Below are positions 7,168 through 14,429 of a stretch of 17,046 bases of DNA, in pieces. Source of the DNA: a virus (taxonomy: Duplodnaviria > Heunggongvirae > Uroviricota > Caudoviricetes). The notes beneath the pieces are model-generated. The model was given only the letters and a program-made list of their open reading frames with translations, did no database searches and had not been told where the DNA came from. Each line of letters begins with the position of its first letter. Position 1 is the stretch's first letter. The DNA lies in the IMG/VR virus record IMGVR_UViG_2651869780_000020, positions 1 through 17,046 of that record. The stretch is one strand, 5' to 3'. The translations under genes and the position numbers were made by a program.

Positions 7168-8574
7168 ATGGCTACTTGGCAAGGAACAAATGGCGGATTG
7201 TTGGCTGGTATCGGTGGTGTCAACTCAAACGCTCCGAGCGTAAATGACATCGGCAATACGCTTCAGCTTATCAGACAGAACAATGATATTGAGCGTTCAG
7301 GCGCTAACAATGTTGGGCTGACTGCTTTGCAAGGTCTTTCAGGTATTGCGGGGGTGTTTCAGCAGGAAAAGCAGGCTCAGCGGCAGAAAGAATTTCAGCA
7401 GGCATACGCTAATGCTTATGCGTCTGGTGATCGCGGTGCTTTGCGTCAGTTGGCTACTCAATATCCAGACCAGATTGAATCCGTTCGTAAAGGCATGGGA
7501 TTCATTGACGAAGACCAGCGCAATTCTATCGGCACCTTAGCGGCTGGCGCACGCCTTGCGGCCTCGTCTCCAGAAGCAATGCAATCATGGCTGCAAAACA
7601 ACGCCAAGGAACTGGCGCGCGTCGGTGTTGACCCTAATAACGTTGCTCAGATGTATCAGCAGAATCCTTCAGGATTTGGTGAGTTTGTTGATCACCTTGG
7701 GATGGCTGCGCTTGGTCCGATTGATTACTTCAATGTTCAGGACAAGATGGCTGGTCGTGAGATTGACCGAGGCAGACTGGCAGAGACAATCCGCAGCAAT
7801 CAGGCTGGAGAAGCACTTCAGGCGAGAGGGCAAAACCTTTCCTATCAGTCAGCAATGACTGGGCACAATATCGCAGCACAACGCTTGGCTCTGGATCAGC
7901 AAGAGTTCGGGTTTAAGATGCAGCAAGCGCAGGAAAAGGCTCAGCAGTTGATTAGCGAAGCACCTAAGCTGTCAGTAAACATGGAAAAAGGCATCGAGAC
8001 GGCTGTAAACAATGCTACAGCATCATCAAACTCAGCCAATTCTATGAGTGCGCTTGCTCAACAGTTCAGAGCAGAAAAACCAACGACAGGTTTGTTCGGT
8101 AACGCACAGAACATGTTCGCAAAACTTACCGGAAGCGATACAACATTGCGTGATTTGCGCATCCGCCAAAATGCCCTTGTTAACAGTCAGGTTCTTAAAT
8201 TCCTACCTCCAGGCCCCGCAACGGATAAAGACGTTGAGATCGTTCGGCAGGGTGCACCAACTGACATGGATAACCCTGAGACGGTCGCAAGATGGCTTGA
8301 TGCGATGGCAAACCTTGAGCGACGAAACGCGCAGTTTAATGAGTTTAAAGCCGAGTGGATGAGCGCGAATGGCAATCCAGGACAATCGCGTAATGGCGGT
8401 CAGATATTGGGGTTGGATGTTAAAAAAGGTGAATCATTGGGGAGTGCCGTTAAGCGGTATATGTCAATGAATACTGACGCAGCGCCAGCACAAGATTCGA
8501 CACCTTCAGGAGAACCACGGAATCAGGTTGGATCATATACCTCAAAATCAGGCATTCAATTTACGGTGGAATGA
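7168..8574 (+). CDS. Ejection (injection) protein, P22 gp20-like
   Basis: 468 aa versus about 471 aa for P22 gp20; syntenic; RBS aagggg. Stop overlaps the next start (ATGA at 8571-8574). Confidence 0.8.
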
Positions 8575-10697
8575 TGAAAGTAACTGCAAACGGTAAGACA
8601 TTTACCTTCCCTGATGGTACGAGCACGGAAGATATTGGCACCGCCATTGATGAGTATTTTGCTGGTCAGGCTGTTCAGCAACAAACAGTTAATCAGGCCA
8701 ATAATGAACCAGCACGTGAAGAACCATCATTGATGCAACAAGCTGGCGATTGGCTCACAGGTGGTCAAAGTGCAGGGCAAATTGCAGAGCAGGCTGGTCG
8801 TGGTCTGGTAAACATACCATTTGACGTATTGCAGGGTGGCGCAAGTCTGATTAATGCAATCAGCCAGGGGCTTGGTGGCCCCAAGGTTTTGGATGATGTT
8901 TATCGCCCTGTCGATCGACCGACAGACCGTTGGGCGCAAGCCGGTGAAACATTTGGTGGGTATCTCCTGCCAATTGGCACAGCGGCAAAAGCTGCTGGAG
9001 CGACAGCAAAGCTCGCAGGAGACATCGGTTCCGCAGGAAACATGATTGCAGGTTCTCTTGCTGATGCTGCAAATCAGAAGGGTGATTTTGCACAAAATGC
9101 TGCCATTAACGGTGGTATCAATATTGGTGCTCAAGGCGTTCTTTCAGGTGTCGGGCGCGTTATTGCGCCAAGGGTTTCACAGGCTCTTGGTGGTGCAGCA
9201 CTGAATTCTGCTAATGATGTTTCCAGGATGGCAAAGTCAGGTGCTGGGCGTCAGTCAATTGCCAGTCAGGCCGCTAATGTGTCCGAAGATGTAGCAAAAG
9301 CGGCTGAGTCTGCTGGAATTGATATAAACGCATTAACACCAGGAATGCGATCTGGAAGTCGTGGAATTGCACAAGCCGAAGGCGCATTGGCATCAACACC
9401 AGGAATTGTTCAGGACGCCCATCAGGCAGCATTTAACGAAATATCATCAAAGTTAAGTCGAAACCTTGATGAATTTGGGGCCGCATCTGGAACGGCATCA
9501 GAAAAAAGTGCGGCTATAAAACAAAGGATTCTTCAAAATCTTGAACAGATGAAGGATGCCGAGCGCGCGGCATGGGATGACGTGCGGTCAACAATGCCAA
9601 ATCAAAAAGCAAGAATGCTAAATGGTAATGCCGTTATTCAGGCAGAGCGATCTGCTGGCATACCGCTTACTCCTGAAATGAAACAGTTTGTTCAGGCAAA
9701 CAATCAAGGTGGAGTAACATTTGATGGCATGAAAGCATGGAGAGCGAAATTTGCTGATGCGGAGCAAAAATATAAGCGTAGCGGAGAGGCAAATGCGGCA
9801 AGGAGAGCAGGGGAAATACGCCGGGCAATTACTGATGATATGCGCACAATGGCGGAAAACGGCGGATTTCTTGATGACTGGCAGAAAGCTAATGATCTGT
9901 CTAAAGCGAGGTTATCAGCACAAGAGAGTGCAGAGTCTGTTTTCGGGCGTGATTTGGCAACAGATGCACTGATTACGAATGGAGTAAAATCCCTTCAATC
10001 ATCGTCAGCTAAAGGTCTTAATGGCCCTGCTGGGTTCCATTCTATGATCCGCGCGCTGCCAGAATCAGAGCGTGTTCCTGCTATATCATCAATGTTGCAA
10101 GACGCTATCTCGCATGGTGTACGTGGTGGCAAAGCTGATGCAGCAGGAATTAACCATATCGCAGGGATACTTACCCCACAAAATGTAAAAGCCATTAGCA
10201 GATATTCCTCAGAACTCGGAAGAATTGCTGATGCATATGGCACTCTTGCAAGAGCAGCAGTGAAACCTCAGCAGTATATTGAAAGAACAGGGAGAACTGC
10301 CAATGTACTACGCGATCTGGATGCTGGTTTATCCAACGTCACATCAACAGTGTTAAATGCAATTGCCAACTCAACATCAGGTGCCATTGTTGGTGGCGCT
10401 GGAGGGGGTATTGCAGGCGCTGCCGCGGGTGCTTTAGTTGGCGCTGGGTTAAAAGGCGCTGTATCTAAAATTGCCACCACACGTAGTGGCCGATATGCGA
10501 TAGAGAAAGCTGTTCAGGAAGCCACCAAAGCAGTAAGAGCAGGCGGAAGTAAAGAAGCATTAGCGGCTGCGGAACGCAGATTTATGGCAAATAAGGCCGC
10601 CGTAAAAGCAATACGCGAGGCACTAGGAAACGAAGAGTTCCAGCGTTTAGCAAGAGCTGGAATTGTGGCATCGCTAAGCGGAATGGCACAGGAGTAA
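8571..10697 (+). CDS. Ejection (injection) protein, P22 gp16-like
   Basis: 708 aa, last and largest of the three ejection proteins. Gly/Ala-rich segments. Translationally coupled to gp20. Longer than P22 gp16 (about 609 aa as recalled). Confidence 0.8.
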
Positions 10698-11102
10698 TTA
10701 GTCATCCATGGATGGATTGAGCTTATCTCGTGTTGATGTGGCAATTTTCCCAACATTTTTCAACCAAGATTTTAAGAAGGATATGTCGTCCTTAATATCA
10801 TGAATATCCTCATTCTTTATACGATCAACCTTATCCTCTAAGCTCTCTATAGAACGCTCAATGCTAGACAGAGAGATTTTTAAGTCCCCTTGCTCACGTT
10901 CCAGTGAGGATTTGAGAGCACAATATTCGTTTTCTAGAATTCCTATTTTTTTTGTTAGAGAGTGCATTCGATACTCATACACCAAACCAGAAACGACTAA
11001 TGCAGCCAACAGAAACCATTCAAGCACACCAACCTCCTTAGTTTTGAGCAGGATACCAGATGATAATGTGTAGTTGGAGTAGCGCGGTTGTAATGCAAGC
11101 AT
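10698..11102 (-). CDS. Hypothetical membrane-anchored coiled-coil protein (candidate superinfection-exclusion function, P22 sieA position)
   Basis: 134 aa. One predicted transmembrane helix (LEWFLLAALVVSGLVYEY) followed by a heptad-rich charged segment (LENEYCALKSSLEREQGDLKISLSSIERSIESLEDKVDRIKNEDIHDIKDDISFLKSW). AT-rich. Convergent with gp16 with abutting stop codons (TAATTA at 10695-10700). No obvious SD sequence. No family recognised. Confidence 0.55.
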   Translation of the reverse strand: MLALQPRYSNYTLSSGILLKTKEVGVLEWFLLAALVVSGLVYEYRMHSLTKKIGILENEYCALKSSLEREQGDLKISLSSIERSIESLEDKVDRIKNEDIHDIKDDISFLKSWLKNVGKIATSTRDKLNPSMDD

Positions 11103-11182
11103 TTTGTTTTAGTTTTATGCTTGCTTGTATGTGTGTACAGTGTATATAATGCAAGCATACATCACAACAAAGGTGCTTGCAT
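11093..11182. repeat. Four copies of a 9-10 bp near-palindromic motif in alternating orientation: ATGCAAGCAT (11093-11102), ATGCTTGC (11117-11124), ATGCAAGCAT (11149-11158), TGCTTGCAT (11174-11182)
   Basis: Read directly from the sequence. The copies form two imperfect inverted-repeat units of about 32 bp, spaced about 56 bp apart. Copy 1 overlaps the start codon of the - strand membrane protein; copy 2 overlaps the -35; copy 3 abuts the -10; copy 4 lies between the RBS and the ATG of the 322-aa gene. Confidence 0.6.
11121..11150 (+). promoter_or_regulatory. Sigma70-like promoter for the 322-aa accessory gene
   Basis: TTGCTT (11121-11126), 18-bp spacer, TATAAT (11145-11150); RBS aggtg at 11171-11175; ATG at 11184. 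Confidence 0.55.
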
Positions 11183-11183
11183 T

Positions 11184-12152
11184 ATGACTGAAAAGAAAAG
11201 TGGCGAAGGGAAAGCTAAGGGCGGGATCGCTCGCGCAAAGTCGCTGACTAAAGAGCAGCGTTCTGAAATAGCAAAGAAAGCAGCTGCTGCAAGATGGAAA
11301 AGTAAGATTCTCAGGGCAACTCATCGTGGTAACTTTTTAGATGATTTTGGCATTGATGCTGAATGTTATGTACTGGATGACGAGTCGAAAACTGTCGTTG
11401 TTACGAAAACTGGATTATCTCAGTTGCTAGGGATTGGTGAACATGCCAGGGATTTAGATCAACTGCTTGGCGCTCAGTATATGAGCAAATACCGAGATCT
11501 AGAATTGCAGCGAAAAATGGAAAATCCCTATAAATTTCAACTTACTTCGAAGTCTAAAACCGTTCATCAAGCGTTAGGTTATGACATTACAGCAATTGTT
11601 GATATTGGTAGGGCACTAATAGAAGCCAAAGATAATGACGATCTACCACAATCACGGTTAAAGGCAGCCGCCGCAGCACAGAGACTTATTAATGCCTCCG
11701 CTAAGGCGGGAATTAAGGGGGTTGCGTATGCGCTTGCTGGTTATCGTCCAGAAGTTCAGGCTGTCATTGACGAGTTCAAAGCGTTTGTTCGTGAAGAGGC
11801 TCGTCAATATGAAAAGGAATTTCCAGATGAGCTATACGAGGAGTGGTATCGACTGTACGGCCTGAATAGGCCAGAGAAAGGACGGCCTATTCGTTTTGGG
11901 CAGCTAACCAACATGCAGATATACACCCCGCTAGCAAAGAGTAAAGGTAAAATCCTTGAACAGATTCGAGCCAGCCGAGACGAGAACGGAAAACAATCTG
12001 ATAAGTTGCATCTGTTCCTTTCTGAAATTGGTGTCAAGGCTTTGCGTCAGCATATCGGTAAGCTTCTTGGTGTCGCAGCGATGAGTGAGACAAGAGAAGA
12101 ATACGAAAAAGGAATAGAAAAGGTTTTCGGAAGAATGAAACCAGAAATCTAA
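11184..12152 (+). CDS. Hypothetical 322-aa accessory (moron) protein with a basic N-terminal helix-turn-helix-like motif; function unknown
   Basis: Long ORF with its own promoter and a strong terminator. The TTG start at 11121 in the ORF track is rejected in favour of ATG 11184 (MTEKKSGEGKAKGGIARAKSLTKEQRSEIAKKAAAARW..). The remainder is a charged, helical-looking domain. Not part of the conserved P22 structural set. Confidence 0.75.
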   Translation: MTEKKSGEGKAKGGIARAKSLTKEQRSEIAKKAAAARWKSKILRATHRGNFLDDFGIDAECYVLDDESKTVVVTKTGLSQLLGIGEHARDLDQLLGAQYMSKYRDLELQRKMENPYKFQLTSKSKTVHQALGYDITAIVDIGRALIEAKDNDDLPQSRLKAAAAAQRLINASAKAGIKGVAYALAGYRPEVQAVIDEFKAFVREEARQYEKEFPDELYEEWYRLYGLNRPEKGRPIRFGQLTNMQIYTPLAKSKGKILEQIRASRDENGKQSDKLHLFLSEIGVKALRQHIGKLLGVAAMSETREEYEKGIEKVFGRMKPEI

Positions 12153-12157
12153 TTATG

Positions 12158-12183
12158 AAACCCACCGTCAGGTGGGTTTTTTG
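12158..12183. terminator. Intrinsic terminator, probably bidirectional
   Basis: aaacccacc (12158-12166), loop gtca, ggtgggttt (12171-12179), T-run to 12183; A-rich on the upstream side. Lies between the convergent 322-aa gene (+) and the 67-aa gene (-). Confidence 0.8.
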
Positions 12184-12198
12184 TTGGAGATAAAATGG

Positions 12199-12402
12199 TT
12201 AACCAAATCGATCCTTAAAGCGCCTATCGCTGTTGCGTCTCTCCATTTTACTGTTGCAGTACGGACAAAGATGCTGTTTCTTTCCATCGATAGTCCATGT
12301 GAAGTACTTTTTCTTAAATCCAGCACCACAGATATCGCAACTTCTTGGTTTAAACATACTGGCTATGAAGATAAGAACAACAAATCCTATGATCCATTCC
12401 AT
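12199..12402 (-). CDS. Small membrane-anchored zinc-ribbon protein (67 aa)
   Basis: N-terminal hydrophobic helix (EWIIGFVVLIFIASMF) followed by CDIC..(19 aa)..CPYC, i.e. four Cys in a C-x2-C...C-x2-C arrangement, and a basic tail. Ends just before the bidirectional terminator. Confidence 0.5.
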   Translation of the reverse strand: MEWIIGFVVLIFIASMFKPRSCDICGAGFKKKYFTWTIDGKKQHLCPYCNSKMERRNSDRRFKDRFG

Positions 12403-12543
12403 ATCATGTACCTGTTTTAACTTTATTTTTTGATTTTTAGGGATTAATCAGAAACTTTATCTTGCGATTAAGCAAAGCTACTAGCTAACAAAAGAGTGCG
12501 TATACAATCAATCGTTTCACATCAACCTCAACAAGGAGAAATC

Positions 12544-12729
12544 ATGACCATAGAAGAACGCCTGAACAACATTGAGTTGAACCAAACCCTGCTTGACCAG
12601 CGACTTTCAGATCTTGAGCTTAAAGATCTTGATGCGCAAATATCAGAAGCAGAAGCCAAGCTCTCCAGCTTAAACCACCGCAAGAAGCAAATCCGCAACA
12701 GAATTACTCAGGGACGCGGAAGCTGTTGA
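12544..12729 (+). CDS. Small coiled-coil protein (61 aa)
   Basis: ATG 12544 preceded by a strong SD AAGGAG (12533-12538) at 5-nt spacing; the GTG at 12496 in the ORF track is rejected. Sequence MTIEERLNNIELNQTLLDQRLSDLELKDLDAQISEAEAKL.. is heptad-like. The 3' end overlaps the convergent 69-aa ORF by 26 nt. Confidence 0.5.
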   Translation: MTIEERLNNIELNQTLLDQRLSDLELKDLDAQISEAEAKLSSLNHRKKQIRNRITQGRGSC

Positions 12730-12913
12730 GGTGGGATGCTAGGTCTCTATCGTTAAAATCAAGGCTGCTAATCATTTCATTGTAAATGGCGTTTTTATCT
12801 TCCATTGGCAGTCTTGAGTAAACCAGACACAGAGCATATTTCAGGGAGTTTAGCTCTTTCTCTAGCTCTTCCTTGCTTGACGTTGTTGACTTAATAAACT
12901 GTTTTTTATTCAT
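12704..12913 (-). CDS. Hypothetical 69-aa protein, translationally coupled downstream of mnt
   Basis: On the - strand its ATG overlaps the mnt TGA stop (ATGA at 12910-12913). No recognisable family. Confidence 0.45.
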   Translation of the reverse strand: MNKKQFIKSTTSSKEELEKELNSLKYALCLVYSRLPMEDKNAIYNEMISSLDFNDRDLASHLNSFRVPE

Positions 12914-13161
12914 TTTGCATCCTTACCATACATGGTCTTTAGCGTCTCAACATCGTGTTCAAGATCTATCAATCGTGATGCTATAGTTGCAAGGTCTAGT
13001 GCTTGAATGTGTTTATTTTTTTCGGTCCACGCTTCAAGTGCCGCGACCATCTCAGCATTTAATGAACGAGAATTAGCCTCAGCCAGTTCAATAAGACGTT
13101 CCTTTATCTCTACAGGAAGCCTCAGATTCACTTGAGGGTTTTTGTACTTACGATCAGACAT
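12910..13161 (-). CDS. mnt: Mnt-like ribbon-helix-helix repressor (Arc/MetJ superfamily)
   Basis: 83 aa, the same length as P22 Mnt as recalled. N-terminus ..NLRLPVEIKERLIELAEANSRSLNAEMVAALEAW matches the RHH beta-strand/helix pattern of P22 Mnt (..FRMPMEVREKLKFRAEANGRSMNSELLQIV..). Divergent from arc. Confidence 0.8.
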   Translation of the reverse strand: MSDRKYKNPQVNLRLPVEIKERLIELAEANSRSLNAEMVAALEAWTEKNKHIQALDLATIASRLIDLEHDVETLKTMYGKDAK

Positions 13162-13266: not shown

Positions 13267-13407
13267 ATGAAGGTAAAAACACTGCGTATGCCAGAGAAGC
13301 TAGAAAAAATTCTTGAAGAAAAAGCAAAGGAAGAGTGTCGCTCATTCAGCGCAGAAGTAATTAAACGGGTGCTGGACAGCCTGAGGAGAGAGGGGATAAC
13401 GGTGTGA
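13267..13407 (+). CDS. arc: Arc-like ribbon-helix-helix repressor (46 aa; below the ORF-track size cutoff)
   Basis: Own translation: MKVKTLRMPEKLEKILEEKAKEECRSFSAEVIKRVLDSLRREGITV. The segment RSFSAEVIKRVLDSLRREG resembles P22 Arc RSVNSEIYQRVMESFKKEG as recalled. SD GGAGG at 13256-13260. Sits between mnt and ant as in P22 immI. Confidence 0.75.
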   Translation: MKVKTLRMPEKLEKILEEKAKEECRSFSAEVIKRVLDSLRREGITV

Positions 13408-13423: not shown

Positions 13424-13472
13424 AAAGAAATCAAAACAGTGAAGCCCCAACTGCGGGAACAGTCAGGGCTTC
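13424..13472 (-). terminator. Intrinsic terminator oriented for leftward (- strand) transcription in the arc-ant spacer
   Basis: Stem GAAGCCC (13441-13447) / GGGCTTC (13466-13472) with an inner ACTG/CAGT helix. On the - strand it is followed by ACUGUUUUGAUUUCUUU (complement of 13424-13440). No U-run follows it on the + strand. Confidence 0.55.
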
Positions 13473-13505
13473 GGTATCGTAAAACCACGCATAGGAATTA
13501 ACGAC
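13424..13505 (-). ncRNA. Predicted sar-like small antisense RNA, complementary to the ant ribosome-binding site
   Basis: Inferred from a - strand promoter inside the ant 5' end (see 13512-13540) plus the - strand terminator at 13424-13472. The predicted transcript of about 80 nt is antisense to the ant SD (agga 13493-13496) and start region, analogous to the P22 Sar RNA. Ends are approximate. Confidence 0.4.
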
Positions 13506-14429
13506 ATGAAAAGTATAGCAACAGCAGTATCTACTATCAATGTACCATTCCACGGCGCAGAGCTTTATGTTGTCAATCACAACGGCGAACCGTATACCCC
13601 AATGAAACCTATCGTTGAGGGAATGGGGCTAGACTGGAAATCTCAACATAAGAAGATTTCTCAACGCTTCTCGAAGGGTATGGTGGAAATCACCATACCT
13701 TCTGCCGGTGGGGTGCAAGCCATGATTTGTATGGCTTTACGAAAATTGGCAGCTTGGTTGAACAGCATCAGTCCTAACAAAGTCCGCCCTGAAATCCGCG
13801 ACAAGGAAATCCAGTATCAGGAAGAGTGTGACGATGTGCTCTACGAGTACTGGACTAAAGGCCATGTAGTTAACCCACGCAAAGCTAAAAAGGCGTTGCC
13901 GGGTAAAATCACCACTGAACAGCAGGAAGCCATTAAACAACTCGTCATGAGTCGCGGTCAGTCTCTGCCAAAAGAAAAACAGGCTAAGGCGATGATCACC
14001 ATGTGGTCGTCACTGAAATCTCATTTTGGGTGTTCATACAAAGAAATCAGCGATGAGCAGTTTACCGAAGCTCTGTCACTTGCAGCTCGCGTTCCGCTTG
14101 AAGGCGAGTTAATCGGCAAACAAGAGAAGAAAGCAAACGAGCTTTCTGCAAAAGAAGCAAACAGCCTTGTATGGTTATGGGATTATGCCAACCGCTCACA
14201 GGCATTATTCCGCGAACTGTATCCGGCGCTAAAACAAATTCAATCGAACTATTCCGGCAGATGTCATGACTGCGGTTATGAGTTCTCCCGTATTATCGAT
14301 ATGGCGAGAGATGTTTTAATCAACCATACACGAGATGTTGATATTAATGAGCCAGACGGACCAACGAATCTTTCCGCATGGATGAGACTTAAGAATAAAG
14401 AATTACCTCCTTCAGTACATAACTACTGA
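13506..14429 (+). CDS. ant: Antirepressor (Ant-like)
   Basis: 307 aa versus about 300 aa for P22 Ant. Located directly downstream of arc. N-terminal pattern (..VPFHGAELYVV..GEPYTPMKPIVEGMGLDWKSQHKKI..) is reminiscent of phage antirepressor N-terminal domains. Followed by a terminator. Confidence 0.7.
   Translation: MKSIATAVSTINVPFHGAELYVVNHNGEPYTPMKPIVEGMGLDWKSQHKKISQRFSKGMVEITIPSAGGVQAMICMALRKLAAWLNSISPNKVRPEIRDKEIQYQEECDDVLYEYWTKGHVVNPRKAKKALPGKITTEQQEAIKQLVMSRGQSLPKEKQAKAMITMWSSLKSHFGCSYKEISDEQFTEALSLAARVPLEGELIGKQEKKANELSAKEANSLVWLWDYANRSQALFRELYPALKQIQSNYSGRCHDCGYEFSRIIDMARDVLINHTRDVDINEPDGPTNLSAWMRLKNKELPPSVHNY
13512..13540 (-). promoter_or_regulatory. Psar-like leftward promoter inside the first codons of ant
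   Basis: On the - strand: TTGATA (complement of 13535-13540), 17-bp spacer, TATACT (complement of 13512-13517); the predicted start is near the ant ATG. Confidence 0.5.

What the first reader, a model, noticed from the sequence alone, without database searches (positions are those of the whole stretch)
10698..12450. Uncharacterised accessory cassette occupying the P22 sieA position between the ejection genes and immI
In P22 the interval between gene 16 and mnt carries the superinfection-exclusion gene sieA. Here the same slot holds an AT-rich cassette whose products I cannot place in any characterised family. It contains a convergent membrane/coiled-coil protein (134 aa), a 322-aa protein with its own sigma70-like promoter and strong terminator, and a membrane zinc-ribbon microprotein (67 aa). 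Self-contained promoter and terminator, foreign base composition and placement at a known exclusion locus are hallmarks of prophage morons that protect the lysogen, so this is the most likely place for a new superinfection-exclusion or anti-phage function.
Basis: partly seen in the sequence, partly recalled or inferred. Interest (0 to 1): 0.8.

Follow-up and report, generated by a model that had tools for sequence, protein, structure and literature searches.

The report
Three independent prophage accessory genes
The stretch is not one defence cassette but three separately exchangeable accessory genes of a P22-like E. coli prophage. One sits exactly where the exclusion gene sieA sits in P22, and another belongs to a widespread family that carries its own conserved DNA-site array and travels on transposons and phages.

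Summary
The window is a P22-like (Lederbergvirus) E. coli prophage. Positions 10698-12450 are the start of the known, fast-changing "ant moron" between gene 16 and immI.

The three ORFs are real, but they are not one cassette.

1. **ORF1 is HkcB**, 109 aa from GTG 11027, not 134 aa. It is a single-pass membrane coiled-coil protein. It lies behind the same 29-nt leader and ribosome-binding site that precedes P22 sieA. At least 11 other unrelated small genes, most with an N-terminal hydrophobic segment, use that leader in other phages.

2. **ORF2 is a P63C-domain protein** (Pfam PF10546), from a family of more than 1,600 proteins in many phyla. Its gene always travels with four ATGCAAGCAT palindromes. 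These cover its -35, its +1 and its start codon. In other phyla it is the passenger of an IS1-family transposon with 8-bp target duplications. I infer an autoregulated DNA-binding protein of unknown downstream function.

3. **ORF3 (67 aa)** is a conserved membrane-anchored zinc ribbon. RefSeq does not annotate it.

The three modules assort independently among E. coli prophages. No known defence family matches any of them. A superinfection-exclusion role is plausible only for HkcB, and only from its position.

The parts
8571..10697 (+). Gene 16 homologue (DNA transfer / ejection protein). This is the left boundary of the moron.
   Evidence: ORF. Annotated as DNA transfer protein in HK620, vB_EcoP-611R6 and E. 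coli EC28.
10698..11027 (-). hkcB: 109 aa with a GTG start. It has an N-terminal transmembrane helix (residues 2-18), a coiled coil, and a conserved C-terminal stretch of about 45 aa. It occupies the sieA slot.
   Evidence: phrog_5962, E 2.8e-61 over residues 26-134 of the long ORF. 98% nucleotide identity to HK620 hkcB. RefSeq CDS WP_000895335.1. Hydrophobic segment and following charges. Conservation.
11029..11057 (-). Conserved 29-nt leader GGTATCCTGCnnAAAACTAAGGAGGTTGG, with the Shine-Dalgarno sequence at 11033-11039. It precedes every gene found in the sieA slot.
   Evidence: Identical block upstream of P22 sieA, HK620 hkcB and three other slot genes. At least 12 unrelated proteins follow it.
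11093..11182 (.). Array of four 10-bp palindromes ATGCAAGCAT / ATGCTTGCAT at 11093-11102, 11117-11126, 11149-11158 and 11173-11182. Start-to-start spacing is 24, 32 and 24 bp.
   Evidence: The same array, order and spacing is seen upstream of P63C genes in 40 of 81 loci with exact cores and in 60 of 80 loci with three or more sites, across phyla. These four are the only such cluster in the 49-kb stretch that holds the prophage and its flanks.
11121..11150 (+). Promoter of the P63C gene: -35 TTGCTT (inside site 2), an 18-nt spacer, and -10 TATAAT abutting site 3.
   Evidence: The layout (-35 inside site 2, a TAnnAT hexamer directly before site 3) recurs in other phyla.
11184..12152 (+). P63C-domain protein, 322 aa. 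It has an N-terminal basic helix (GGIARAKSLTKEQRSEIAKKAAAARW), an alpha/beta domain (about residues 43-150), and the helical P63C domain (about residues 200-318).
   Evidence: PF10546, E 7e-14. phrog_2384, E 2e-104. WP_000136767.1. 1,682 homologues. AlphaFold2 model with pLDDT 73. The P63C part aligns to a KilA-N-P63C protein.
12157..12180 (+). Intrinsic terminator of the P63C gene. It marks the right edge of the P63C module (about 12184).
   Evidence: -20.9 kcal/mol, z = -4.7. Matches in other E. coli prophages end at 12184.
12199..12402 (-). orf67: an N-terminal transmembrane helix followed by a CxxC...CxxC zinc ribbon. RefSeq does not annotate it. It occupies the place of P22 orf59a but is unrelated to it.
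   Evidence: 18 homologues at 65-97% identity with the Cys residues conserved: C22, C46 and C49 are invariant and C25 is nearly so. Homologues in Klebsiella phage KP12 and Edwardsiella phage Edno5; in Edno5 it lies directly downstream of mnt. No CDS is called at this position in EC28.

Best explanation
The interval is the gene-16-proximal part of the 'ant moron' of a P22-like E. coli prophage. It is a mosaic of three independently exchangeable modules.

(1) hkcB.
- It is one of at least 12 unrelated small genes that can occupy the sieA slot. All are translated from the same conserved leader and ribosome-binding site, on the strand opposite to the late operon (shown). Most have an N-terminal hydrophobic segment.
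- I infer that it is made in the lysogen as a bitopic inner-membrane protein with its coiled coil in the cytoplasm.
- I infer that, like SieA, it interferes with genome entry of related phages.

(2) The 322-aa P63C protein.
- It is a self-contained gene unit with its own promoter and terminator. Four ATGCAAGCAT palindromes cover the -35, the +1 and the start codon (shown).
- The unit is conserved across phyla. It moves as a solitary phage moron or as the passenger of an IS1-family transposon (shown).
- I infer that the protein binds these palindromes through its N-terminal basic helix and alpha/beta domain and represses its own promoter.
- What the C-terminal P63C domain then does is unknown.

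(3) orf67.
- It is a conserved membrane-anchored zinc-ribbon microprotein in the place of P22 orf59a, at the tail of the leftward mnt transcription unit (shown).
- Its function is unknown.
For: Context:
- The window matches E. coli EC28 at 100% and P22-like phages at 92-96%.
- immI is confirmed by Arc/Mnt, sar and Ant matches.

Mosaicism:
- The identical P63C protein lies next to sieA (strain elppa4), a 75-aa gene (A2), a 122-aa RefSeq CDS (129 aa when read from the conserved GTG, cluster 0; strain N9) and hkcB (EC28).
- Phage vB_EcoP-611R6 has hkcB and P63C but no orf67.
- Among 129 loci holding the leader, 12 slot families and at least 8 families in the divergent position combine freely.

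hkcB:
- It has the same leader as P22 sieA.
- It has a transmembrane helix followed by R/K residues.
- SieA is an inner-membrane blocker of DNA entry (PMC10883804).

P63C:
- The site array appears in 60 of 80 non-redundant genomes, at 9.3 sites per kb against 0.98 per kb in the rest of the loci.
- Start-to-start spacing is fixed at 23-24, 31-32 and 23-24 bp, and site 4 ends 0-2 nt before the ATG.
- An Acidobacteria subgroup has a different 20-bp inverted repeat. Its consensus protein differs from the main group mainly in the N-terminal basic helix.
- A KilA-N domain replaces residues 1-200 in a P63C fusion protein.
- BFVD Foldseek gives weak hits to Ant-N and Bro-N domains.
- Transposon ends GGTAGTGnnTCAGTTTGAA occur in 7 loci, and 6 of these have perfect 8-bp target duplications.

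orf67.
Against: - No experiment or expression data exist for any of the three genes in this prophage.
- HkcB shares no sequence, motif or topology with SieA. Its role rests on position alone.
- I found only a weak leftward promoter for hkcB (TTGTGA-17-TACACT, 8 of 12 matches).
- DNA binding by the P63C protein is inferred. No Pfam DNA-binding domain is detected in residues 1-187.
- A host factor could bind the palindromes instead, or sites 3 and 4 could act as an RNA hairpin (-15.8 kcal/mol). However, with this -10 the left arm lies upstream of the expected +1. Variants in L135 and L136 are also not compensatory.
Confidence: 0.55

Rival explanations
1. One reading: hkcB, the P63C gene and orf67 form one co-functional anti-phage or superinfection-exclusion cassette.
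For: - The three genes are adjacent.
- The stretch is AT-rich.
- It lies at a locus that holds sieA in P22.
Against: - The three genes occur in many other combinations, and each occurs without the others.
- Recombination boundaries fall between them, at 11025 and 12184.
- There are no PADLOC matches.
Confidence: 0.05
2. The P63C protein works like BstA. It would be a prophage-made protein of about 300 aa with an N-terminal DNA-binding domain that aborts replication of invading phages. The palindrome array overlapping its start would act like the aba element. When the array is amplified on the replicating home phage, it would titrate the protein and give self-immunity.
For: [quoted passage not shown]
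- The P63C protein has similar size and domain order, and has DNA sites overlapping its start.
- A 303-aa full-length paralogue (26% identity) sits in the same prophage directly downstream of the cI-type repressor, overlapping it by 8 nt. That is BstA's position.
- The array is the only such cluster in the 49-kb stretch that holds the prophage and its flanks.
Against: - No sequence homology to BstA: hhalign probability 6%, BLASTP E 1.6. There are no PADLOC hits.
- This copy is not downstream of the repressor.
- aba has terminal direct repeats, not four palindromes.
- The sites also coincide with -35 and +1, which plain autorepression explains.
- Carriage on IS1-family transposons in non-phage contexts is not expected for a prophage self-immunity device.
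Confidence: 0.2
3. The P63C protein is mainly an accessory regulator of its own mobile element. In the transposon form it would control the divergent IS1-family transposase from the shared intergenic site array. The phage copies would be selfish hitch-hikers that give the lysogen no benefit.
For: - 22-30 of 72 loci have a divergent IS1-like transposase gene.
- The site array lies between the two genes.
- The elements have intact inverted repeats and 8-bp duplications.
Against: - Solitary copies keep the full array and an intact, highly conserved ORF in phages with no transposase. No inverted-repeat remnant is present in the window.
- The protein is identical in many E. coli prophages, which implies selection independent of transposition.
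Confidence: 0.15
4. The leftward hkcB transcript acts, wholly or partly, as an antisense RNA against the 3' end of gene 16 of incoming related phages. STnc6030 of prophage BTP1 is reported to work this way.
For: - hkcB's stop codon abuts gene 16's stop codon (10698 and 10697).
- No significant terminator follows. The 10473-10490 hairpin has z = -0.9.
- STnc6030 is antisense to the gene 16 homologue and excludes BTP1 (PMC7067206).
Against: - hkcB is a conserved protein with 22 invariant residues in a 9-sequence alignment reaching down to 46% identity, and it has a strong ribosome-binding site.
- The extent of antisense transcription is unknown.
Confidence: 0.1

Closest known systems
P22 SieA (superinfection exclusion protein A)
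   Same: - HkcB occupies the same position immediately after gene 16, on the same strand, behind the same 29-nt leader and Shine-Dalgarno sequence.
- Both are small membrane proteins.
   Different: - There is no sequence similarity. The two fall in separate BLAST clusters.
- By inspection, HkcB lacks SieA's conserved FxRYPxEAxxFNK motif.
- HkcB has one transmembrane helix plus a coiled coil. SieA has several hydrophobic segments.
- No exclusion phenotype has been tested for HkcB.
HK620 HkcB / epsilon34 gp14 / CUS-3 HkcB (phrog_5962)
   Same: - 98% nucleotide identity to HK620 hkcB and 50% protein identity to the epsilon34, CUS-3 and SEN22 proteins.
- Same location in each phage.
   Different: Nothing material. 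ORF1 is a member of this family, and the family has no known function (PMC2629481).
P63C domain family (Pfam PF10546; named after the C-terminus of Myxococcus phage Mx8 p63)
   Same: - The HMM score is above the gathering threshold.
- The protein matches phrog_2384 over its full length.
- The C-terminal 120 aa align to a KilA-N-P63C fusion protein.
   Different: - This subfamily carries its own N-terminal module: a basic 'ARW' helix plus an alpha/beta domain.
- It also carries a conserved four-palindrome array.
- I found neither feature described in the held literature. Only three papers mention the domain, and none addresses its function.
BstA-aba abortive-infection system of prophage BTP1
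   Same: - Prophage-borne protein of about 300 aa.
- Putative DNA-binding N-terminal domain plus a second domain.
- A cognate DNA element overlaps the gene's start.
- A P63C paralogue occupies the slot downstream of cI in this same prophage.
   Different: - No detectable homology.
- The DNA element has a different architecture.
- This copy has its own promoter in the late region.
- The function is untested.
P22 orf59a / HK620 HkcD
   Same: orf67 is also a small ORF on the leftward strand, between mnt and the terminator that ends the divergent gene.
   Different: - The sequences are unrelated. orf59a is a hydrophilic, Gly/Lys-rich 59-aa protein.
- A tblastn search with orf67 finds no P22 match.

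Membership tests
SieA superinfection-exclusion family (types A-C) | Sequence homology to SieA, including the conserved cytoplasmic motif FxRYPxEAxxFNK (PMC10883804) | tested here: not met
   HkcB and SieA fall in separate clusters at BLASTP E 1e-5. The motif is absent from the HkcB sequence.
SieA superinfection-exclusion family (types A-C) | Gene lies between the homologues of genes 16 and 9, antisense to the late operon, behind the sieA leader | tested here: met
   The 29-nt leader is identical and the GTG start is in the same register.
SieA superinfection-exclusion family (types A-C) | Blocks DNA entry of P22-like phages when expressed alone | not testable with these tools
   This needs plating and potassium-efflux assays.
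HkcB family (phrog_5962) | Full-length profile match and synteny with HK620 hkcB | tested here: met
   E 2.8e-61 over profile positions 1-109 of 109. 98% identity to HK620 hkcB at the same position.
P63C domain proteins (PF10546) | Pfam HMM score above the gathering threshold | tested here: met
   52.7 bits against a cut-off of 26.1, over residues 199-286. RefSeq names the protein 'P63C domain-containing protein'.
BstA abortive-infection family | Sequence homology to BstA of BTP1 | tested here: not met
   hhalign probability 5.9% over 22 columns. BLASTP of the paralogue against BstA gives E 1.6. BstA has no Pfam match at all.
BstA abortive-infection family | Gene lies directly downstream of the prophage repressor and shares its promoter | tested here: not met
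   This copy lies in the late region with its own promoter. Only the 303-aa paralogue, at L214 11655-12566, has that position.
BstA abortive-infection family | Cognate DNA element overlapping the gene start that suppresses the protein | tested here: inconclusive
   A conserved site array overlaps the start codon. Whether it suppresses the protein cannot be computed.
Bro-N / KilA-N / Ant-N DNA-binding domains | Profile match of the N-terminal region | tested here: not met
   No Pfam hit for residues 1-187 even at E 10. hhalign against Ant and against a Bro-N protein gives probabilities of 2% or less. Only weak structural hits exist: BFVD Ant-N with probability 0.97 and TM 0.51, and Bro-N with TM 0.47-0.50.
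Known anti-phage defence systems (PADLOC-DB 2.0) | Match to any defence protein model | tested here: not met
   No hits for the P63C protein or orf67. HkcB and the neighbouring orf61 give only weak partial coiled-coil hits: DpdH at E 0.0033 for HkcB, and PbeC at E 7e-4 and JetC at E 0.0075 for orf61.
IS1-family transposon carrying a P63C passenger | Terminal inverted repeats GGTAGTGnnTCAGTTTGAA, a divergent IS1-like transposase and an 8-bp target duplication | tested here: not met
   The window has no inverted repeat even with 3 mismatches allowed, and it has no transposase. Relatives L140, L144, L155, L161, L170 and L185 meet all features; L164 has the repeats but no duplication.
P22 orf59a | Sequence similarity of orf67 to orf59a | tested here: not met
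   The orf59a sequence is unrelated. A tblastn search with orf67 finds only Klebsiella and Edwardsiella phages.

The most novel reading that the evidence does not exclude
P63C-type proteins would be a family spanning many phyla of sequence-specific DNA-binding proteins, each locked to an invariant four-palindrome array at its own start codon. They spread both as IS1-family transposon passengers and as phage morons. They would act as BstA-like inhibitors of foreign replicons, with the array serving as both autoregulator and copy-number-sensing self-immunity decoy. In parallel, the sieA slot would be a plug-in site where a dozen unrelated membrane proteins, HkcB included, each block entry of a different set of P22-like phages.
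Probability: 0.15. Interest if true: 0.8.

Novelty: new variant of a known kind. Interest (0 to 1): 0.5.

Why it matters
- **Locus.** It is a known moron hot spot and two of the three families already have names, so the basic finding is ordinary.
- **A plug-in exclusion slot.** One invariant leader and ribosome-binding site drives at least 12 unrelated small genes, most with an N-terminal hydrophobic segment, in the sieA slot. This gives a ready-made list of candidate exclusion proteins. All can be tested in the genetic system already built for SieA.
- **A handle on P63C.** This uncharacterised family has about 3,100 clusters at 50% identity. It now has a defined DNA motif (ATGCAAGCAT, four copies, fixed spacing), a candidate recognition helix, and a link to an active IS1-family transposon. 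The function of a widespread mobile-element gene becomes directly testable.
- **A possible defence hint.** A paralogue sits in the repressor-adjacent defence slot of the same prophage. If the family turns out to be anti-phage, it would be missing from current defence catalogues.

Tried and rejected
- **N-terminal half of the P63C protein.** Pfam finds nothing. Profile comparison with Ant and with a Bro-N protein finds nothing.
- **Homology to BstA.** Rejected.
- **orf67 as a P22 orf59a homologue.** Rejected.
- **RNA-hairpin reading of sites 3 and 4.** It folds well. I rate it below the DNA-operator reading for three reasons. The left arm overlaps the -10 and lies upstream of the expected +1. 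Each site is itself a palindrome. Natural variants are not compensatory.
- **Other targets of the palindrome in the prophage.** There are none.
- **IS remnants in the window.** There are none.
- **Rfam.** Only sar passes the threshold.
- **Literature.** Searches for hkcB, P63C and PF10546 found no functional studies. The 2002 Iyer, Koonin and Aravind paper that defined P63C is not in the held library, so its content is cited from memory only.
- **LexA-like box.** The sequence TTGT-N8-ACAG in the promoter spacer is conserved in enterobacterial copies. It lacks the canonical CTG, and I could not score it.
Full report
**Context**

The window matches the chromosome of E. coli EC28 at 100% identity. 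It matches P22-like phages (CUS-3, Huey, Sf101, Kapi1, vB_EcoP-611R6) at 92-96% over the virion genes. Gene 16 ends at 10697.

Downstream lie mnt (12910-13161, -), arc (13267-13407), sar RNA (13438-13504, Rfam 76.6 bits), ant (13506-14429) and the tailspike. The finding therefore covers the gene-16-proximal part of what Villafane et al. called the 'ant moron'. They described that region as being 'in a state of rapid flux' among P22-like phages (PMC2629481).

**The observation**

The three ORFs exist. GC is 0.38-0.44 against about 0.45-0.55 in the structural genes. The low GC continues through immI and the tailspike.

The terminator after ORF2 is convincing: hairpin 12157-12180, -20.9 kcal/mol, z = -4.7. 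ORF2 has a TTGCTT-18-TATAAT promoter at 11121-11150. The generic scan shows no excess of promoter-like sites in the region.

Two statements need correcting.
- The 134-aa ORF is over-extended. Its ATG has no Shine-Dalgarno sequence and lies inside a palindromic site. GTG 11025-11027 follows AAGGAGG and gives the 109-aa protein annotated in HK620 and RefSeq.
- Two of the proteins do belong to named families. ORF1 is HkcB (phrog_5962, E 3e-61). ORF2 is a P63C-domain protein (PF10546, 52.7 bits against a cut-off of 26.1; phrog_2384, E 2e-104). Both families have no known function.

**Not one cassette**

In 5,426 complete E. coli genomes, 299 match part of the stretch and only 20 match 80% or more of it. 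Match boundaries fall at 11025 (the hkcB start codon) and 12184 (the terminator).

The identical P63C protein (WP_000136767.1) is found in four settings:
- next to hkcB in EC28;
- next to sieA itself in strain elppa4;
- next to a 75-aa gene in strain A2;
- next to a 122-aa RefSeq CDS in strain N9, which reads as 129 aa from the conserved GTG (cluster 0).

Phage vB_EcoP-611R6 has hkcB and P63C followed directly by a small regulator gene at the mnt position, with no orf67.

**The sieA slot**

A 29-nt block, GGTATCCTGCnnAAAACTAAGGAGGTTGG, followed by T and GTG, precedes four kinds of gene. These are P22 sieA, HK620 hkcB, the window's hkcB and the other slot genes. In P22 it abuts the annotated sieA promoter.

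I translated from the conserved GTG in 129 loci. This gave 12 unrelated families of 62 to 164 aa. Most begin with a hydrophobic segment. They include SieA, HkcB and a second, unrelated family with a transmembrane helix and a coiled coil.

The divergent neighbouring position holds at least 8 families (hkcC, a 143-aa putative lipoprotein, P63C and others). The two positions combine freely. HkcB, not the whole stretch, is therefore the positional counterpart of SieA.

HkcB has one N-terminal transmembrane helix followed by R/K residues, so the coiled coil should be cytoplasmic. Its most conserved part is the C-terminal 45 residues. The family is confined to Enterobacteriaceae. No study of its function was found.

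SieA is an inner-membrane protein that blocks DNA transport by acting on the ejection proteins (PMC10883804). A similar role for HkcB is a reasonable inference, but it rests on position alone.

**The P63C gene: family and fold**

The family is large. There are 1,682 hits in the 90%-identity clustered database. In the 50%-identity library there are 3,133 clusters at E ≤ 1e-3 and 238 at E ≤ 1e-30. Full-length relatives at 45-52% identity occur in several phyla: Proteobacteria, Acidobacteriota, Myxococcota, Firmicutes, Chloroflexi and Abditibacteriaceae.

The AlphaFold2 model has pLDDT 73. It shows three parts: an N-terminal helix, an alpha/beta domain (residues 43-150) and a helical C-terminal half.

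No solved structure resembles it. BFVD gives weak hits to Ant-N and Bro-N domains for the alpha/beta part. Sequence profiles do not confirm this.

The Pfam P63C domain corresponds to residues 200-318. It aligns to the C-terminus of a KilA-N-P63C fusion protein at 90.6% probability. In that fusion a DNA-binding domain takes the place of residues 1-200.

**The P63C gene: the conserved site array**

Four copies of the 10-bp palindrome ATGCAAGCAT / ATGCTTGCAT lie at 11093, 11117, 11149 and 11173. Site 2 contains the -35, site 3 abuts the -10, and site 4 runs into the ATG.

The same array appears in three kinds of relative:
- a 53%-identical allele at the same locus of another prophage;
- a siphophage-like prophage of Leminorella;
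- an unrelated metagenomic contig.

Across the non-redundant genomes the numbers are:
- 60 of 80 loci have three or more sites;
- site density is 9.3 per kb around the start against 0.98 per kb elsewhere;
- in 40 loci with exact cores, the central AA/TT order is always AA-TT-AA-TT;
- start-to-start spacing in those loci is 22-25, 30-33 and 22-25 bp;
- site 4 ends 0-2 nt before the start codon.

The array is the only such cluster in the 49-kb stretch that holds the prophage and its flanks.

An Acidobacteria subgroup has a different 20-bp inverted repeat instead. Its consensus protein differs from the main group essentially only in the N-terminal basic helix: GGEARAKKLSAERRREIARAAIQARWEKAGK against GGIARAEALSPEERKEIAKKAAAARWG.

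The simplest reading is that the protein binds its own promoter through this helix and the adjacent domain, and so limits its own synthesis. This is inference. No binding has been shown.

**The P63C gene: a transposon passenger**

In 22-30 of 72 loci the gene is divergently paired with an IS1-family-like DDE transposase (Pfam DDE_Tnp_IS1, E about 1e-6 to 1e-7; NCBIfam transpos_IS1, E 1e-16, below its cut-off).

In seven loci the pair is bounded by inverted repeats GGTAGTGnnTCAGTTTGAA. Six of these have perfect 8-bp target duplications. The elements are 2.3-2.76 kb long. The P63C unit is therefore the passenger of an active transposon in many phyla, and a solitary moron in phages. The window holds no remnant of the transposon ends.

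**A paralogue in the repressor-adjacent slot**

The same prophage, outside the window, encodes a second full-length P63C protein of 303 aa. It is 26% identical to the first and lacks the basic helix. Its gene overlaps the 3' end of the cI-type repressor gene by 8 nt.

That is the position of rexAB in lambda and of bstA in BTP1. [quoted passage not shown] The resemblance in size, domain order, location of the paralogue and a start-overlapping DNA element is suggestive. However, BstA and P63C proteins share no detectable sequence similarity. PADLOC has no match for either P63C protein. I therefore keep 'works like BstA' as a rival at about 0.2.

**orf67**

The ORF at 12199-12402 (-) is not annotated in EC28. 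It has 18 homologues at 65-97% identity. C22, C46 and C49 are invariant, C25 is nearly so, and there is a conserved FKKKYFTW...GKKQHLCP.CN core.

Homologues occur in Klebsiella phage KP12 and Edwardsiella phage Edno5. In Edno5 the gene follows mnt directly. That is the place of orf59a in P22, but the two proteins are unrelated. It is a real gene of unknown function: a transmembrane helix followed by a cytoplasmic zinc ribbon.

**Verdict**

The region is a known hot spot. The genes are a mosaic rather than a cassette, and two of the three belong to named but uncharacterised families.

The defence interpretation is supported by position only, and only for hkcB. The most interesting results go beyond the finding:
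- the plug-in architecture of the sieA slot;
- the conserved palindrome array, transposon carriage and repressor-adjacent paralogue of the P63C family.

These make both sets of genes directly testable.

Noticed in passing
L214 11655-12566 (-), which is NZ_CP049101.1 1539654-1540565. Same prophage, outside the window.: A second, full-length P63C paralogue of 303 aa, 26% identical to ORF2. It overlaps the 3' end of the cI-type repressor gene by 8 nt. This is the rexAB / bstA position. Homologues occur in Salmonella P22-like phages (ST104 orf23) and in Stx phages (933W).
   Followed up: partly
L140, L144, L155, L161, L164, L170 and L185 (genome loci): A 2.3-2.76-kb IS1-family transposon. It has terminal repeats GGTAGTGnnTCAGTTTGAA, and six of the seven loci show 8-bp target duplications. 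It carries a divergent transposase, the P63C gene with its site array, and often a small convergent ORF.
   Followed up: partly
Downstream of P63C genes in L137, L141, L146, L155, L156, L161 and L164: Small convergent ORFs of 70-113 aa end in the same GGxARAxxLSxxxRxxIAxKAAxARW motif that forms the N-terminus of the P63C protein. They could be competitors or co-regulators for the same DNA sites. No Pfam family matches them.
   Followed up: no
window 11125-11140: The sequence TTGT-N8-ACAG lies in the spacer of the P63C promoter. It is conserved in four of the five Enterobacterales loci (L133-L136; L132 lacks it) but not in other phyla. It resembles a LexA box except for T in place of the canonical C. 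It has not been scored or tested.
   Followed up: no
window 12199-12402 (-): orf67 is missing from the RefSeq annotation of E. coli EC28 and its relatives, although it is conserved and is annotated in Yersinia and in two phages.
   Followed up: yes
window 12544-12729 (+) and 12704-12913 (-): Two further moron genes lie between orf67 and mnt. One is a 61-aa coiled-coil protein (phrog_7586). The other is a 69-aa protein (phrog_16466) whose start overlaps the mnt stop. The two converge, and their 3' ends overlap by 26 nt.
   Followed up: no
viral loci L012-L131: The sieA slot holds 12 unrelated families, including a second 109-aa family with a transmembrane helix and a coiled coil but no similarity to HkcB. 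The divergent position holds a 147-149-aa family that, from memory, resembles SocA/DUF4065 antitoxin-type domains. I did not check this.
   Followed up: partly
window 10455-10700 (-): hkcB's stop codon directly abuts the gene 16 stop codon, and no significant terminator follows. Leftward transcripts should therefore run antisense into gene 16. The STnc6030 antisense RNA of BTP1 is a possible parallel (PMC7067206).
   Followed up: partly
proteins P0142 and P0143: These are chimeric relatives of HkcB. The conserved C-terminal 45 residues are joined to an unrelated, non-membrane N-terminus, so the C-terminal segment may be a separable module.
   Followed up: no
L008 7047-7583 (-): In another P22-like prophage, the position between the P63C gene and mnt holds a 178-aa ClpP-family protease gene instead of orf67, orf61 and orf69.
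   Followed up: no
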